Shown here in pieces: positions 791-15,512 of a stretch of DNA of 64,000 nucleotides (position 1 is its first letter; every line of letters starts with the position of its first letter). The DNA comes from a virus: positions 72,321 through 136,320 of the IMG/VR virus record IMGVR_UViG_3300044684_000278. One strand, written 5' to 3'. The translations under genes and the position numbers were made by a program. The notes below the pieces were generated by a model, which worked only from the letters and a program-made list of their open reading frames with translations, was not told the DNA's origin and did no database searches.

Positions 791-815
791 GGTTAATTAG
801 GATTTGGATTATAAG

Positions 816-888
816 TGCGGAGAGAAAGATTCGAACTGACGACCTTCCGGGTATAAGCCGGATGCTCTATCCACTGAGCTATCTCCGC
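816..888 (-). tRNA. tRNA-Ile(UAU), weak T-stem
   Basis: Reverse complement GCGGAGA-TA-GCTC..GAGC-A-TCCGG-CTTATAC-CCGGA-AGGTC-GTCAG-TTCGAAT-CTTTC-TCTCCGC-A; two T-stem mismatches. Confidence 0.8.
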
Positions 889-932
889 ATGTAGTAAGAG
901 CCAGAAGTTAATCCGGCTCTTAAATAAGTTAA

Positions 933-11455: not shown

Positions 11456-12094
11456 ATGAACAAAGTGAGCAAGGACTACTATGCTCTGAATCTGACAGAC
11501 AAGCAGACAGACCGTCTGATCACAAAAGTAGAAGCAGACATCACAATACTCATGCAGGAGATCTCCACAAAGACCGGCCCACTCCGGGAGGCAGAGCAGT
11601 ATTACATGGAATTAAAGCGGGAACATGATGCTATCCAGGATGAGCTCAATGACTCCAAATCCTTACTGGAGGCTCTGACCCGGTTCAAGACCAATGCCAG
11701 GGGAAGTAAGGAGATCCGGGTGTTGAGAACTACTTCCGTGACGGAGAGCAAAGAGAAAAAACGCAGGCATTTCAAGTGGATCCAGATGGCTATAGAAGTG
11801 CTGACCAAAGAAGACAAGTACATGAGCCATGAAGAGCTCTGGAAGAAAATGCTCACATCCTTCCCGGAGATTGAGAAAGCCTTTAACGGGGACAAGCAGA
11901 AACTCAACCAGGTAAAGAACACCACCTTCCATAATTTCAACAGGGCCTGTGAGGAATCCAGGAAGAATAACTCCGGGAAGCTAATTGACTACCAGAAGAA
12001 GATCGGACTCTTTGGCTGGACCCTGGATAACCTGGCTCCGGATCCCCAGCACATTAAAGAGTTCATGCACGGAGGTATGAGAGCAGCCGTGTAA
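11456..12094 (+). CDS. hypothetical protein (coiled coil plus possible winged helix)
   Basis: 212 aa; heptad region, then WIQMAIEVLTKEDKYMSHEELW. Confidence 0.65.
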   Translation: MNKVSKDYYALNLTDKQTDRLITKVEADITILMQEISTKTGPLREAEQYYMELKREHDAIQDELNDSKSLLEALTRFKTNARGSKEIRVLRTTSVTESKEKKRRHFKWIQMAIEVLTKEDKYMSHEELWKKMLTSFPEIEKAFNGDKQKLNQVKNTTFHNFNRACEESRKNNSGKLIDYQKKIGLFGWTLDNLAPDPQHIKEFMHGGMRAAV

Positions 12095-12112
12095 AAAATA
12101 CTTTGCAGTTCC

Positions 12113-12140
12113 TAAACTTTTTAGTATATTATTAGTAGGA
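12113..12140 (+). promoter_or_regulatory. putative phage-specific promoter (TATATTAT..GTAG motif)
   Basis: TAAACTTTTTAGTATATTATTAGTAGG; the motif recurs before several operons. Confidence 0.5.
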
Positions 12141-12200
12141 TCAGTAAGCAATGGAGCTTCTGATTATTGCAGCAGGAACTGGCTAAGCAGTTTACACGTT

Positions 12201-12692
12201 ATGAAAACTACAGAATTAACAGGATACCGTATCCTGTCTTTCGTAGATCCACAATCAGGATCTTCTGAGAATATCTCAAACTTTCGGCCTTATGCAATCC
12301 AAAGGGATTCAGATGGTGAGATCTTCACAATAGGTGACAGGTTCATTAACAAAAATGTGAAGCCTGGAACAAAGGCTCCTCATGGAGAGATTACCGGGTT
12401 TGAACTGCTGGAAGGCACAGTATTCATTAGACATACCTGGTCAGGAATAGGATTTTCTTTGAACAGTATAGAAAAAGACATCACCCTTCCCTCCAGGTTT
12501 CAGATTAATGACAAGGTTGTCTTTATCATACAGGGAAAGGATTCCAATTTTGGCTGTTTTGATGCAGTAGTAAAAGGGGTTCATTTCTATAAAGGAAAAG
12601 TAAAGTATGACCTGGAACTGCAGTTTGGACAAGACGATTTCACCAGGATCTATAATATTGATTCCTGTTTTGTGGAGCCTATAAAAAATTAA
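12201..12692 (+). CDS. hypothetical protein (tandem SH3-like modules)
   Basis: 163 aa with FTIGD and FQIND module starts. Confidence 0.65.
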   Translation: MKTTELTGYRILSFVDPQSGSSENISNFRPYAIQRDSDGEIFTIGDRFINKNVKPGTKAPHGEITGFELLEGTVFIRHTWSGIGFSLNSIEKDITLPSRFQINDKVVFIIQGKDSNFGCFDAVVKGVHFYKGKVKYDLELQFGQDDFTRIYNIDSCFVEPIKN

Positions 12693-12735
12693 TACAGTCC
12701 CTGGAATTTTCTAAAATAATTAGCATATTTGCATC

Positions 12736-12813
12736 ATGATTTTTAACAACCCATTTCATCAGCAGCCCAACTTCTGGAATCCCTTCCAGGGGCCTGGAGA
12801 TGGTATGTGGTAA
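12736..12813 (+). CDS. putative attenuator leader peptide (25 aa)
   Basis: ATG..TAA reads MIFNNPFHQQPNFWNPFQGPGDGMW; follows CATATTTG, a near match to the Bacteroidota -7 element TAnnTTTG. Confidence 0.7.
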   Translation: MIFNNPFHQQPNFWNPFQGPGDGMW

Positions 12814-12841
12814 TCAAGACAAATAAACATATTCATTAACT

Positions 12842-12880
12842 GAGCTCCTGGAATGCAAACCCCCAGGAGCTTTTTTATTT
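12842..12880 (+). terminator. intrinsic terminator/attenuator immediately before the tRNA array
   Basis: GAGCTCCTGG / CCAGGAGCTT stem followed by a T-rich tract; 5' arm also pairs with 12784-12793. Confidence 0.8.
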
Positions 12881-12881
12881 T

Positions 12882-12954
12882 CTGGATGTAGTGAAGTTGG
12901 TATCATGCCTGGTTTGGGACCAGGAGACCGCAAGTTCGAGTCTTGCCATCCAGA
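12882..12954 (+). tRNA. tRNA-Pro(UGG)
   Basis: CTGGATG/CATCCAG acceptor; CCTGG-TTTGGGA-CCAGG; TTCGAGT T-loop. Confidence 0.9.
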
Positions 12955-12961
12955 CTATTAC

Positions 12962-13036
12962 GGGACCTTAGCTCAGAGGTAGAGCAGCACCCTGTTAAGG
13001 TGATGGTCACAGGTTCAATCCCTGTAGGTCCCGCCA
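12962..13036 (+). tRNA. tRNA-Asn(GUU)
   Basis: GGGACCT/AGGTCCC; loop CTGTTAA; encoded CCA. Confidence 0.9.
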
Positions 13037-13039
13037 TAT

Positions 13040-13111
13040 TTTCCTGTAGTGTAGCTGGCAACACAAGAGATTTTGGCTCTCTTATCACTGGTTCGAACCC
13101 AGTCAGGAAAT
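13040..13111 (+). tRNA. tRNA-Gln(UUG)
   Basis: TTTCCTG/CAGGAAA; AGAGA-TTTTGGC-TCTCT. Confidence 0.88.
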
Positions 13112-13113
13112 CT

Positions 13114-13189
13114 GTGTCTGTAGCTTAATTGGTAGAGCACTGGTTTGTGGCACCAGCAGGTACGGGTTCAACTCCCGTCAGACACCCCA
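13114..13189 (+). tRNA. tRNA-His(GUG)
   Basis: GTGTCTG/CAGACAC, C73, CCA; CTGGT-TTGTGGC-ACCAG. Confidence 0.9.
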
Positions 13190-13190
13190 T

Positions 13191-13263
13191 ATCCGTGTAG
13201 CTCAATTGGTAGAGCAGCGGTCTCCAAAACCGTGTGTTGGTGGTTCGAATCCATCCATGGGTG
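13191..13263 (+). tRNA. tRNA-Trp(CCA)
   Basis: ATCCGTG/CATGGGT; GCGGT-CTCCAAA-ACCGT. Confidence 0.88.
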
Positions 13264-13268
13264 CATCA

Positions 13269-13339
13269 GCCTTCTTCGTCCAATGGTAGGACTACGCACT
13301 TGTAATGCGTGTATGCTGGTTCGAGTCCGGCAGAAGGCT
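13269..13339 (+). tRNA. tRNA-Thr(UGU)
   Basis: GCCTTCT/AGAAGGC; ACGCA-CTTGTAA-TGCGT. Confidence 0.88.
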
Positions 13340-13394
13340 CCTTGATTATTCCAGGGACATGTTTTACTTTTACGCCCGTAAACCTAACGGTCCC

Positions 13395-13844
13395 ATGAAA
13401 ACGAAAATCATCCTGCTGCTTTCCCTGCTGTTTATCTCCCTGAGTTCTTACTGCCAGCTTTCCAACCTTACAGATCCGATCCGTAAAGATGAAGCTTATT
13501 GCCGGGCCCTCATGAAAAATGAAAAGGCTGCCTGGGAGGACTATGGTGAATCAGGAAAGACCGTCCATTATTCCTATCCGGATTACCTGATCACATTTAC
13601 CTTCATCAAGAACCGGTGCGTTAATGTGCGCATTGACTTCGTGGTGAACGAAGATGTTGTGGATAAAACCATGTATCATTGGCTTTATGAAAAAAACTAT
13701 GAGTCAGCCTTTGGCGGAACTTTGTGGGGCAAGATGCTGCCACAGCCTGGAAGATCAGATGCTTCATTTCCAGTAGCCGTACAAAAACTGGACAAGTCCT
13801 CCTGGTGGCTTTATGACGTGCTGTACTATTCAGACAGTCACTAA
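13395..13844 (+). CDS. secreted/periplasmic hypothetical protein
   Basis: Likely start MKTKIILLLSLLFISLSSYC-Q (Bacteroidota-type signal peptide). Confidence 0.65.
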   Translation: MKTKIILLLSLLFISLSSYCQLSNLTDPIRKDEAYCRALMKNEKAAWEDYGESGKTVHYSYPDYLITFTFIKNRCVNVRIDFVVNEDVVDKTMYHWLYEKNYESAFGGTLWGKMLPQPGRSDASFPVAVQKLDKSSWWLYDVLYYSDSH

Positions 13845-15205: not shown

Positions 15206-15361
15206 TGTAGGGTGGTGAAATTGGCAGACACACCGGATTGTCTATCCGGCATTTGATACACAGTGCGTTCTTTAAAAGCTATCATCCATTAATATGCATT
15301 TGTTGTTTTATTCCCTCTCCCTGTATCAAATATGCTGGTTCGAGTCCAGCCCCTACAGCCA
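15206..15361 (+). ncRNA. tRNA-like RNA with a giant (~80 nt) variable arm
   Basis: TGTAGGG/CCCTACA + G + CCA; Leu-type D-arm GTGAAATTGGCAGACAC; CCGGA-TTGTCTA-TCCGG; V-arm closed by ATTTGATACA/TGTATCAAAT; T-arm GCTGG-TTCGAGT-CCAGC. Confidence 0.75.
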
Positions 15362-15415
15362 AAGCGGATCAAACGTGTAGTAACCGCAGGAGTCCGGACT
15401 CCACTACACTCAAAT

Positions 15416-15487
15416 AGCGGGGTAGAGCAGCGGTAGCTCGTGGGTCTCATAATCCCAAGGTCGTGAGTTCGAATCTCACCCCCGCTA
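15416..15487 (+). tRNA. tRNA-Met(CAU), initiator-like
   Basis: AGCGGGG/CCCCGCT; GAGC/GCTC D-stem; three G-C pairs in anticodon stem; loop CTCATAA. Confidence 0.88.
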
Positions 15488-15512
15488 CACCAAACCAAGA
15501 ACCAATGACGTA

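What the first reader, a model, noticed from the sequence alone, without database searches (positions are those of the whole stretch)
12700..13339. Leader-peptide attenuator controlling a phage tRNA array, with leader codons matching the downstream tRNAs
Seen in sequence: a host-like promoter element (CATATTTG, 12724-12731) is followed within a few nt by a 25-codon ORF, MIFNNPFHQQPNFWNPFQGPGDGMW (12736-12813). Then comes a strong intrinsic terminator (12842-12880) and immediately tRNA-Pro, Asn, Gln, His, Trp and Thr. Of codons 4-18, 12 of 15 are N, P, Q, H or W, which are five of the six array amino acids; the other three are Phe. Mutually exclusive pairings are present: 1:2 CTGGAA(12774-79)/TTCCAG(12784-89); 2:3 TTCCAGGGGC(12784-93)/GCTCCTGGAA(12844-53), 10 bp with one G-U; 3:4 the terminator. 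Established: this is the architecture of trp/his-type ribosome-mediated attenuators, normally upstream of amino-acid biosynthesis operons, and phage tRNAs can compensate for host tRNA cleavage by anticodon-nuclease defences. Inference: stalling on these codons when the cognate tRNAs are cleaved or uncharged masks segment 1, favours the antiterminator and induces the replacement tRNAs. That would be a multi-codon tRNA-damage sensor, and I know of no described phage example. Caveats: the leader has no Thr codon, this window has no tRNA-Phe, and the exact stall geometry is untested.
Basis: partly seen in the sequence, partly recalled or inferred. Interest (0 to 1): 0.92.

Follow-up and report, generated by a model that had tools for sequence, protein, structure and literature searches.

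The report
Leader-peptide switch before phage tRNA genes
A soil phage places a tiny 25-codon gene, written mostly in the amino acids of the six tRNAs that follow it, in front of a switchable transcription stop, so it probably makes those tRNAs mainly when ribosomes struggle to read these codons; this is untested at the bench.

Summary
The window lies in a 136-kb crAss-like phage with terminal repeats, from soil. Its relatives sit in Chitinophagaceae assemblies.

One homologue of the leader exists, L019. It is a near-identical genome in which leader, terminator and tRNA-Pro are about 70% identical. It also carries tRNA-Phe and tRNA-Tyr. Its 26-codon ORF, MILTTTYCHQHPFFWNQIQGPGNSVW, names all eight amino acids of its array.

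Evidence for a leader-peptide attenuator:
- The window's ORF ranks 1 of 469 genome sORFs for array amino acids.
- Dinucleotide shuffles give p=3e-4 (window) and 1e-4 (L019).
- Both leaders keep a hairpin over the ORF, a 9-10 bp antiterminator (4 and 7 of 5000 shuffles match it) and a terminator with one compensatory pair.
- The Bacteroidota -7 box places the transcript start on or beside the ATG, so the mRNA would be leaderless.

Weaknesses:
- Only two sequences are available, and there is no RNA data.
- Phe and Thr do not co-vary between leader and array.
- All Gln codons are CAG, while the tRNA anticodon is UUG.
- The L019 folding model does not discriminate between states.

My verdict is a probable leader-peptide attenuator of tRNA genes (about 0.55). 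The tRNA-damage reading is unsupported. Earlier notes of this scan report the same design on other phages. I rechecked phiCbK, where 2 of 4 tRNA blocks fit. Four literature searches found no published account.

The parts
12724..12731 (+). Bacteroidota-type -7 promoter box (CATATTTG; L019 has the perfect TAGATTTG). The predicted transcript start is 12736.
   Evidence: homology with L019 begins at this box. The box position of -12 to -5 comes from a passage of PMC9723704. Related boxes TAnATTTGTAGAA lie before other genes of this phage.
12736..12813 (+). Leader ORF of 25 codons, MIFNNPFHQQPNFWNPFQGPGDGMW, probably on a leaderless mRNA.
   Evidence: It stays an open frame in L019 despite indels of -1 and +4 nt, with the same stop position.
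12745..12774 (+). Proposed sensing codons 4-13 (N N P F H Q Q P N F).
   Evidence: Ribosome-mask folding: with the A site on codons 1-13 the antiterminator probability is 0.80-0.98. Without a ribosome it is 0.18, at codons 15-25 it is 0, and at the stop codon 0.15.
12751..12803 (+). Hairpin P1 over the ORF (segments 1:2). Its apical stem is 12774-12779 / 12784-12789. It sequesters segment 2.
   Evidence: -28.6 kcal/mol, z -2.67. The L019 counterpart is -31.7 kcal/mol, z -4.0. The RNAalifold consensus keeps the apical 8 bp.
12784..12793 (+). Segment 2 (TTCCAGGGGC), the 5' half of the antiterminator. It is a near-copy of the terminator's 3' arm.
   Evidence: 4 of 5000 shuffles match the pairing. 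It lies inside the block TCCAGGGGCCTGG, which is identical in L019.
12844..12853 (+). Segment 3 (GCTCCTGGAA), shared by the antiterminator and the terminator.
   Evidence: In L019 the T is a C, which turns the G-U of pairing 2:3 into G-C and is compensated in the terminator 3' arm.
12842..12881 (+). Intrinsic terminator: 10-bp stem, 11-nt loop and T-run, ending one base before tRNA-Pro.
   Evidence: z -4.69; L019 z -5.22. One search shows 1 compensatory pair of 10.
12882..13341 (+). tRNA array Pro(tgg), Asn(gtt), Gln(ttg), His(gtg), Trp(cca), Thr(tgt).
   Evidence: L019 has Pro, Phe, Tyr, Asn, Gln, His, Trp, Thr.

Best explanation
This is a ribosome-mediated (leader-peptide) transcription attenuator that gates read-through into the tRNA array. 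Transcription starts at or one base before the AUG, so the mRNA is leaderless. Without a ribosome, hairpin P1 (12751-12803) holds segment 2 and the terminator 12842-12881 forms. A ribosome that runs quickly to the stop codon and leaves has the same result. In both cases most transcripts end one base before tRNA-Pro. If the ribosome lingers on codons about 4-13 (Asn, Pro, His, Gln, Phe), because charged tRNA for them is short, it covers the 5' strand of P1. Segment 2 is then free to pair with segment 3 as that emerges, the terminator cannot form, and the polymerase runs into the six tRNA genes. New tRNAs relieve the stall and close the loop. Shown here: the parts, their conservation in one homologue, and their statistical excess. 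Inferred: translation of the ORF, stalling, termination efficiency, and the switch itself.
For: - Geometry: the T-run ends at 12881 and tRNA-Pro starts at 12882. No TAnnTTTG box lies between the ORF and the tRNA, so the array can only be reached by read-through.
- Codon content, window: 14 of 24 codons are array amino acids, dinucleotide-shuffle p=0.0003. The other two frames give 7 and 6 of 26. The ORF ranks 1 of 469 genome sORFs. The same amino acids make up 0.24 of residues in the phage's 94 ORFs of 150 codons or more.
- Codon content, L019: 17 of 25 codons lie in its own 8-amino-acid set, p=0.0001, and the other frames give 6 and 9 of 27. All 8 array amino acids occur in its leader.
- The frame stays open across compensating indels, with the same ATG and stop.
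- RNA: P1 has z -2.7 and -4.0. The terminators have z -4.7 and -5.2. The antiterminator pairing is 10 bp in the window and 9 bp in L019, reached by 4 and 7 of 5000 shuffles. There is one compensatory pair in the terminator, and the same base changes G-U to G-C in pairing 2:3.
- In the window, the mask model switches exactly over the codon-rich first half of the ORF.
- Promoter: the box lies at -12 to -5 (PMC9723704 passage), which puts +1 on the A of the ATG in the window and one base before it in L019. Homology between the two genomes starts at the box.
- Leader-peptide attenuation is reported as likely in a flavobacterium (same paper, passage).
gp083 plus a terminator precedes Pro-Pro-Lys-Lys-Leu3-Ser2 (23 of 44, p=0.009).
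Against: - Only two homologous sequences exist, so covariation rests on one pair.
- Other relatives lack the leader and this array. ARAGORN finds tRNAs in 2 of 21 viral loci (L019 itself and one tRNA-Asp) and single tRNAs in 2 of 11 MAG loci. Of 5 whole relative contigs, 3 have no tRNA and 1 has Arg-Leu-Met directly behind a CDS with no leader.
- Leader and array do not co-vary for Phe (4 codons in the window, no tRNA-Phe) or for Thr (tRNA present, 0 codons).
- All 6 Gln codons of the two leaders are CAG against anticodon UUG. Window Pro codons are CCA, CCC, CCC and CCT against UGG, so reading them needs wobble.
- In the less structure-bound first halves the excess is modest: p=0.010 and 0.048 by dinucleotide shuffles.
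- Part of the W/N/P/Q content sits in the conserved stem sequences.
- In L019 the equilibrium model forms the antiterminator without any ribosome (0.96) and also at the stop codon (0.98), so discrimination there must be kinetic.
- The window's box has C where the consensus has T.
- 5' UTRs under 10 nt are only about 3.7% in Bacteroides thetaiotaomicron, and leaderless mRNAs 5.5% in Flavobacterium psychrophilum (passages).
- A hairpin before a tRNA is not special here. The solitary Ile, Met and Ser tRNAs have one too. A Sulfitobacter phage has a terminator abutting tRNA-Pro behind an unmatched 37-aa ORF.
- In the 4 phages I picked blind, 0 of 4 arrays show a clear matched leader.
- The Rfam His_leader match is at chance level (22.3 bits against a cut-off of 49, E=0.84).
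Confidence: 0.55

Rival explanations
1. A constitutive leaky terminator with a structured 5' leader RNA. The promoter makes a roughly 145-nt RNA (P1 plus terminator hairpin). This RNA is either a by-product or an sRNA. A fixed fraction of polymerases read through into the tRNAs, RNase P releases the leader, and the ORF is not a sensor.
For: A promoter, a structured RNA and an intrinsic terminator together are the anatomy of an sRNA gene. Hairpins directly precede the three solitary tRNAs of this phage. A terminator abuts tRNA-Pro in Sulfitobacter phage vB_SupP_AX without a matched ORF. The conserved blocks CTTCTGGAATC and TCCAGGGGCCTGG are identical at synonymous sites, which points to constraint on the RNA. 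The L019 model does not need a ribosome to form the antiterminator.
Against: This reading does not explain why this ORF ranks 1 of 469 for array amino acids. It does not explain why L019's diverged and frame-shifted first half is again rich in its own array's amino acids (10 of 13). It also does not explain why the frame and stop are kept or why the predicted start falls on the ATG in both genomes.
Confidence: 0.27
2. The ORF encodes a small functional peptide, or a nascent peptide that arrests the ribosome near its conserved end (F-W-N-x-x-Q-G-P-G-x-x-x-W-stop). The link to the tRNAs would then be indirect.
For: The C-terminal half is conserved between the two genomes (FWN, QGPG, final W and TAA). 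The titles and abstracts listed describe trans functions for the trpL attenuator peptide and RNA in Sinorhizobium.
Against: Conservation extends to synonymous positions and coincides with the stems. The N-terminal half changes frame and sequence, which is unlike a folded peptide. At 25-26 residues the peptide is below the 30-residue minimum of the search of protein representatives, structure prediction and the protein-atlas search, so it could not be run there.
Confidence: 0.08
3. A chance ORF inside a plain terminator region that ends the upstream gene 12201-12692.
For: ORFs of 25 codons are common: 469 ATG-sORFs of 20-35 codons lie in this genome. No terminator lies between the stop at 12692 and the leader.
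Against: See, the conservation in L019, and the absence of any other route to the array.
Confidence: 0.07

Closest known systems
Leader-peptide transcription attenuators of amino-acid operons (trpL, hisL, pheL; the multivalent thr and ilvGMEDA leaders). Textbook knowledge, recalled; the pheL abstract was seen in the listing.
   Same: A short ORF carrying codons tied to the regulated genes, a 1:2 hairpin, a 2:3 antiterminator and a 3:4 intrinsic terminator. As in thr and ilv, several amino acids are sensed at once.
   Different: The regulated genes are tRNAs, not biosynthetic enzymes. The element is phage-borne. The mRNA is predicted to be leaderless. The stop codon lies 18 nt beyond segment 2, so a terminating ribosome does not cover segment 2. 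There is no sequence membership in an Rfam leader family.
pheST (pheM leader) attenuator and T-box leaders of aminoacyl-tRNA synthetase genes (recalled, not read here).
   Same: Transcription attenuation that couples the supply of charged tRNA to genes of the decoding machinery.
   Different: Those elements control synthetases. The T-box binds uncharged tRNA directly and needs no ribosome. No T-box or other leader family matched.
Anabaena trn operon, a silent tRNA array induced under translational stress (PMC8421152, passages; PMC10272220, abstract).
   Same: An extra tRNA array that is switched on when translation is impaired.
   Different: There the control is a repressor (TrcR) acting on direct repeats at the promoter. 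It involves no leader ORF and no terminator, and it is cellular, not viral.
Phage tRNAs that counter tRNA-cleaving defences such as PARIS (PMC11464382 and PMC12409363, abstracts in the listing).
   Same: Phage-encoded tRNAs as replacements for depleted host tRNAs.
   Different: Those abstracts describe no sensing or induction of the phage tRNA genes. Nothing in this window links the array to a nuclease.
The same design noted by this scan on other phages (e1-4045671 and others; unchecked AI notes). I rechecked phiCbK.
   Same: A promoter, an sORF rich in the array's amino acids and a terminator before a tRNA block.
   Different: There is no sequence relation to this leader (0 look-alikes). The host phylum differs. 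Only this case has a leaderless start. In phiCbK only 2 of 4 blocks fit.

Membership tests
Ribosome-mediated leader-peptide attenuators | A short ORF in the 5' leader, between the promoter and the regulated genes | tested here: met
   ORF 12736-12813, kept open in L019.
Ribosome-mediated leader-peptide attenuators | The ORF is translated | not testable with these tools
   No RNA or ribosome data were available, and no RNA run was listed. Translation would have to start on a leaderless AUG.
Ribosome-mediated leader-peptide attenuators | Regulatory codons that correspond to what the regulated genes supply | tested here: met
   14 of 24 codons (p=3e-4) in the window and 17 of 25 (p=1e-4) in L019; rank 1 of 469. 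The match is at the amino-acid level only. Phe and Thr do not co-vary, and Gln codons are CAG against anticodon UUG.
Ribosome-mediated leader-peptide attenuators | An intrinsic terminator before the regulated genes | tested here: met
   Stem z -4.7 and -5.2, followed by a T-run, with 1 compensatory pair.
Ribosome-mediated leader-peptide attenuators | An antiterminator that excludes the terminator | tested here: met
   10 bp in the window and 9 bp in L019, matched by 4 and 7 of 5000 shuffles. It is conserved in both genomes.
Ribosome-mediated leader-peptide attenuators | Ribosome position decides between the two folds | tested here: inconclusive
   The window model switches as expected. The L019 equilibrium model forms the antiterminator in every free state. 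These are models only.
Ribosome-mediated leader-peptide attenuators | The regulated genes are amino-acid biosynthesis or synthetase genes | tested here: not met
   Six tRNA genes follow. I therefore file this as a variant, not a member, of the classical set.
Rfam His_leader RF00514 and other Rfam leader families | A score at or above the family's gathering cut-off | tested here: not met
   22.3 bits against a cut-off of 49, E=0.84. No other leader family was listed.
Independent sRNA gene | An own promoter and terminator, a stable transcript and a trans target | not testable with these tools
   The promoter box and terminator are present. There are no expression data and no target search was made.

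The most novel reading that the evidence does not exclude
The leader is a gauge of the decodable tRNA pool that the phage uses against tRNA-targeting defences. When host tRNAs for Asn, His, Gln, Pro, Phe, Tyr, Trp or Thr are cleaved or withheld, ribosomes stall on the leaderless leader, the terminator is bypassed and replacement tRNAs are made on demand. The array and leader move between phages as one exchangeable module. The swap between the window and L019 is an example.
Probability: 0.15. Interest if true: 0.9.

Novelty: new variant of a known kind. Interest (0 to 1): 0.68.

Why it matters
If the switch works, attenuation by a leader peptide extends from amino-acid and synthetase genes to tRNA genes themselves, and to viruses. 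A phage would then measure decoding capacity codon by codon and top it up only when needed. That gives a testable answer to how phage tRNA genes are regulated. It also supplies a compact multi-amino-acid sensor that functions without a Shine-Dalgarno sequence in Bacteroidota. The natural pair of variants, with two leaders and two array contents in otherwise near-identical genomes, is a ready-made experiment. The value of this single case is limited. It has only one homologue, and the scan has already noted the same idea on other phages.

Tried and rejected
Searches for more homologues of the leader all failed.
- Exact and degenerate DNA patterns in viral contigs found only L019's contig plus 12 chance loci without tRNAs (L024-L025 and L038-L047).
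- The metagenome contigs pattern gave 12 loci. None has a tRNA beside the match.
- The flanking protein 12201-12692 has no relative in viral contigs.
- Protein 13395-13844 has one 53%-identical relative, and protein 11456-12094 has three relatives at 49-58%.
- The first terminase search in genome contigs found nothing. The alignment-based one gave 11 MAG loci without the array.
- blastn of the leader against five relatives' contigs and against the phage's own genome gave only chance hits with E>0.3.

Sequencing runs: no RNA holder is listed. Four DNA runs from soil and rhizosphere were laid, and only the likely source run covers the leader.

Rfam: the His_leader hit is at chance level.

Rejected ideas:
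- That the leader is a decayed tRNA. It has no tRNA or tmRNA match.
- That the terminator stem copies the tRNA-Pro anticodon stem. This is not kept in L019.
- That the 11-nt inverted repeat 12697-12707 / 13348-13358 is a processing stem. It is not kept in L019.

Literature: searches found no account of leader-peptide attenuation of tRNA genes. The library lacks most subscription journals, and I opened no supplements. The TSS tables of PMC9723704 and PMC7366714 could refine the distance from the box to the start.
Full report
WHAT IS THERE. The window is bases 72321-136320 of a 136,320-bp virus record with direct terminal repeats. It carries a crAss-like terminase, portal and major head protein (PHROG matches). 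Its DNA occurs in soil and rhizosphere runs. An alignment-based terminase search found 11 loci in metagenome-assembled genomes. Four are Bacteroidota: two Chitinophagaceae, one 373-kb contig of Puia sp. and one 'uncultured Bacteroidetes'. The other seven carry mixed labels that I take to be binning noise. The host is therefore probably a soil member of the Chitinophagaceae; this is inference.

- the box CATATTTG at 12724-12731;
- the ATG at 12736;
- a 25-codon ORF ending at 12813;
- a 10-bp hairpin with T-run at 12842-12881;
- six tRNA genes from 12882 to 13341.

The phage has three further, solitary tRNAs: Ile, Met and Ser.

THE ONE HOMOLOGUE. Among 21 viral loci with a related terminase, L019 comes from a 136,295-bp contig whose terminase is 100% identical. 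Its proteins from 13841 onward are 98-100% identical to the window's. The stretch from about 12100 to the end of tRNA-Pro is different. The upstream gene is replaced, and leader, terminator and tRNA-Pro are only about 70% identical. tRNA-Phe(gaa) and tRNA-Tyr(gta) lie between Pro and Asn. From tRNA-Asn on, the two genomes are again nearly identical. This is a mosaic swap of a module made of leader and first tRNAs.

Alignable sequence begins at the promoter box, which in L019 is the perfect consensus TAGATTTG. The ORF is kept, with the same ATG and the same stop. One base is lost and four are gained in its first half, so that Asn-Asn in the window corresponds to Thr-Thr-Thr-Tyr in L019. The L019 peptide is MILTTTYCHQHPFFWNQIQGPGNSVW. 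It contains every one of the eight amino acids of the L019 array. The window keeps four Phe codons without a tRNA-Phe, and it has tRNA-Thr without a Thr codon. Only Tyr tracks cleanly: one codon with a tRNA in L019, neither in the window. The claim that codons co-vary with array content is therefore not supported. The claim that the leader is built from array amino acids is supported.

IS IT MORE THAN CHANCE. Array amino acids fill 14 of 24 codons in the window. Mononucleotide shuffles reach this in 0 of 20,000 trials, and dinucleotide shuffles give p=0.0003. In L019 they fill 17 of 25 codons (0 of 20,000; p=0.0001). The other two frames give 7 and 6 of 26 in the window and 6 and 9 of 27 in L019. 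In the first halves, which lie outside the conserved stems, the excess is weaker: 8 of 12 (p=0.010) and 10 of 13 (p=0.048) by dinucleotide shuffles.

As an empirical control I took all 469 ATG-sORFs of 20-35 codons on both strands of the genome. The leader ranks first, at 0.56 against a next best of 0.48 and a mean of 0.24. It is also first under the 8-amino-acid set, at 0.72 against 0.64. The same amino acids make up 0.24 of residues in the phage's 94 ORFs of 150 codons or more.

One caution applies. N, T, Q, H and P are the amino acids of A/C-only codons, so an unstructured C/A-rich spacer raises their background. The shuffles and the frame comparison allow for this. The result survives, but with less margin than a naive count suggests.

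RNA ANATOMY. Both leaders fold into an extended hairpin over the ORF, which I call P1. In the window it is -28.6 kcal/mol with z -2.67. In L019 it is -31.7 kcal/mol with z -4.01. A strong terminator follows in each, with z -4.69 and -5.22. The RNAalifold consensus has 26 pairs. Of these, 24 are invariant, one changes on one side and one changes on both sides. The last is U-A to C-G in the terminator. The same base of the terminator's 5' arm pairs with a G of segment 2, so the change turns G-U into G-C in the antiterminator.

Segment 2 is a near-copy of the terminator's 3' arm in the window and an exact 8-base copy in L019. A contiguous pairing of this length with the 5' arm is reached by 4 of 5000 shuffled leaders for the window and 7 of 5000 for L019. 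The blocks CTTCTGGAATC and TCCAGGGGCCTGG are identical in both genomes, synonymous sites included. This points to constraint on the RNA.

I modelled a stalled ribosome as an unpaired stretch from -15 to +13 around the A-site codon, on RNA cut before the terminator's 3' arm. In the window the antiterminator probability is as follows:
- 0.18 without a ribosome;
- 0.80-0.98 with the A site on codons 1-13;
- 0.50 on codon 14;
- 0 on codons 15-25;
- 0.15 at the stop codon.

The sensitive stretch is thus the first half of the ORF: I F N N P F H Q Q P N F. In L019 the same model gives 0.96 without a ribosome and 0.98 at the stop codon. There the two folds are nearly iso-energetic, and discrimination would have to be kinetic, with P1 forming first. 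With the full RNA the terminator wins in every state, as expected for a kinetic switch. These are equilibrium models with an assumed footprint. They show feasibility, not function.

WHERE THE TRANSCRIPT STARTS. In Flavobacterium psychrophilum the sigma-A box TAnnTTTG lies at -12 to -5 (PMC9723704, passage). Applied here, +1 falls on the A of the ATG in the window and one base before the ATG in L019. The leader mRNA would be leaderless. The passages I read give 5' UTRs under 10 nt as about 3.7% in Bacteroides thetaiotaomicron and leaderless mRNAs as 5.5% in F. psychrophilum. Such mRNAs therefore exist but are uncommon. Other promoter-like boxes of this phage (TAnATTTGTAGAA) lie 18-57 nt before their start codons, so this geometry is particular to the leader. 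The window's box has C in place of the first T. No TAnnTTTG box lies between the ORF and tRNA-Pro, and the T-run touches the tRNA. The array can therefore be reached only through the terminator.

COMPARISONS THAT I MADE MYSELF. Relatives with 56-71% terminase identity do not carry this array. ARAGORN finds tRNAs in 2 of 21 viral loci, namely L019 and one tRNA-Asp, and single tRNAs in 2 of 11 MAG loci. I fetched five relatives' contigs whole, not the Puia contig. Three have no tRNA, one has a single tRNA-Leu, and one has Arg-Leu-Met directly behind a CDS without a leader.

I also picked four public phages from the tRNA hits without knowing their upstream regions.
- crAss phage cr111_1 has a TAnnTTTG box, a 13-codon sORF and a hairpin 4 nt before tRNA-Gln. 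Its cluster covers nearly all amino acids, so a match there means nothing.
- Vibrio phage PhiImVa-1 shows no matched leader.
- Pseudomonas phage ZY21 shows no matched leader.
- Sulfitobacter phage vB_SupP_AX has an intrinsic terminator abutting tRNA-Pro behind a hydrophobic 37-aa ORF that is not matched (9 of 37).

A terminator in front of a phage tRNA array is therefore not in itself a sign of attenuation, and the matched leader is not universal. Within this phage the solitary tRNAs are also preceded by hairpins, but those lack T-runs.

EARLIER NOTES OF THIS SCAN. One search shows that the same idea has been reported on other phages: phiCbK-like Caulobacter phages, a marine Bacteroidota phage, giant phages and a lake phage. 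These are unchecked AI notes. None is a sequence relative of this leader (0 look-alikes).

I rechecked phiCbK (JX100813). Four tRNA blocks lie at 47.8-52.6 kb, and annotated terminators stand before three of them.
- Before Phe-Val-Ile-Ile-Val-Gln-Gln lies a 32-codon sORF, MSKTYRQFVRQIQVVRNI.... It has 9 of 19 F/V/I/Q in codons 2-20 (p=0.0007), and the other frames give 4 and 3 of 31.
- Before Pro-Pro-Lys-Lys-Leu3-Ser2 lies gp083, with 23 of 44 P/K/L/S (p=0.009).
- The sORF before Glu-Asp (3 of 19) does not fit.
- The CDS before Trp-Gly-Gly (8 of 91) does not fit.

So 2 of 4 blocks fit. It nevertheless shows the design in an unrelated phage and host, which raises my odds that the design is functional.

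MECHANISM AND ODDS. The best reading is a ribosome-mediated attenuator of the tRNA array, as set out under Best explanation (0.55). The main rival is a constitutive leaky terminator with a structured leader RNA, or an sRNA, whose ORF is not a sensor (0.27). A functional or arresting peptide (0.08) and pure chance (0.07) follow.

The phage uses CAG for 81% of its Gln codons yet carries tRNA-Gln(UUG). It also carries one U34 tRNA each for Pro and Thr. If these tRNAs help the phage at all, they must read by wobble, and this softens the codon mismatch in the leader; this is inference.

Nothing here tells a tRNA-damage signal from amino-acid starvation or from a simple imbalance between codon supply and demand. 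The defence reading rests only on the general fact that phage tRNAs can rescue infection from tRNA-cleaving systems (abstracts of PMC11464382 and PMC12409363 in the listing).

COMPARISON WITH THE KNOWN, AND NOVELTY. The element works like the multivalent thr and ilv leader attenuators (recalled textbook knowledge). It is not a member of any Rfam leader family. It also fails the classical family's feature that the regulated genes make or charge amino acids. The nearest published control of an extra tRNA array is the Anabaena trn operon. That operon is induced under translational stress through a promoter-bound repressor (PMC8421152, passages; PMC10272220, abstract), which is a different mechanism. 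Four full-text searches and a term search within PMC2965389 found no description of leader-peptide attenuation of tRNA genes. The library omits most subscription journals, so this is not proof of absence.

I rate the finding a new variant of a known kind. The interest is real but tempered. There are only two sequences and no expression data, and the same idea has already been noted elsewhere in this scan.

Noticed in passing
window 815-930 (minus), 15376-15488 (plus); genome 56971-57090 (minus): Each solitary tRNA (Ile, Met, Ser) is preceded by a stable hairpin and the motif ACTACAY, which ends 0-6 nt before the tRNA's 5' end. None has a T-run. This may be a shared processing or 3'-end-protecting signal.
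   Followed up: partly
window 15206-15361 (plus): A tRNA-like gene with a perfect acceptor stem and T arm and an insert of about 76 nt. ARAGORN in intron mode calls it tRNA-Thr(tgt) with an intron.
   Followed up: partly
window 12697-12707 and 13348-13358: An 11-nt perfect inverted repeat, GTCCCTGGAAT / ATTCCAGGGAC, brackets the whole leader and array cassette. The downstream copy is altered in L019 and the upstream region is not alignable there.
   Followed up: partly
window 14604, 43689; genome 49378 (+), 32125, 26564, 16683 (-): A recurring promoter-like motif TAnATTTGTAGA(A/G) lies in intergenic regions, 18-57 nt before start codons in the cases where I measured the distance. It looks like a Bacteroidota -7 box with a phage-specific extension.
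   Followed up: partly
window 12100-12960 versus L019 2815-3490: A mosaic hot spot in two otherwise near-identical 136-kb genomes. The 163-aa gene 12201-12692 is replaced in L019 by a distantly similar 99-aa ORF, the leader and tRNA-Pro are swapped, and tRNA-Phe and tRNA-Tyr are present only in L019.
   Followed up: yes
L091 (phiCbK JX100813 51341-51502 and 49540-49769): sORF MSKTYRQFVRQIQVVRNI... plus a terminator lies before Phe-Val-Ile-Ile-Val-Gln-Gln. gp083, rich in P/K/L/S, plus a terminator lies before Pro-Pro-Lys-Lys-Leu-Leu-Leu-Ser-Ser.
   Followed up: partly
L062 (Sulfitobacter phage vB_SupP_AX) 1837-2008: An intrinsic terminator with a T-run ends exactly at tRNA-Pro, behind a hydrophobic 37-aa ORF that is not rich in the array's amino acids.
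   Followed up: no
L048 (crAss phage cr111_1) 435-551: A TACCTTTG box, a 13-codon sORF MVKTIREGQSVEG and a hairpin ending 4 nt before tRNA-Gln stand at the head of a cluster of 24 tRNA genes annotated in the fetched stretch.
   Followed up: no
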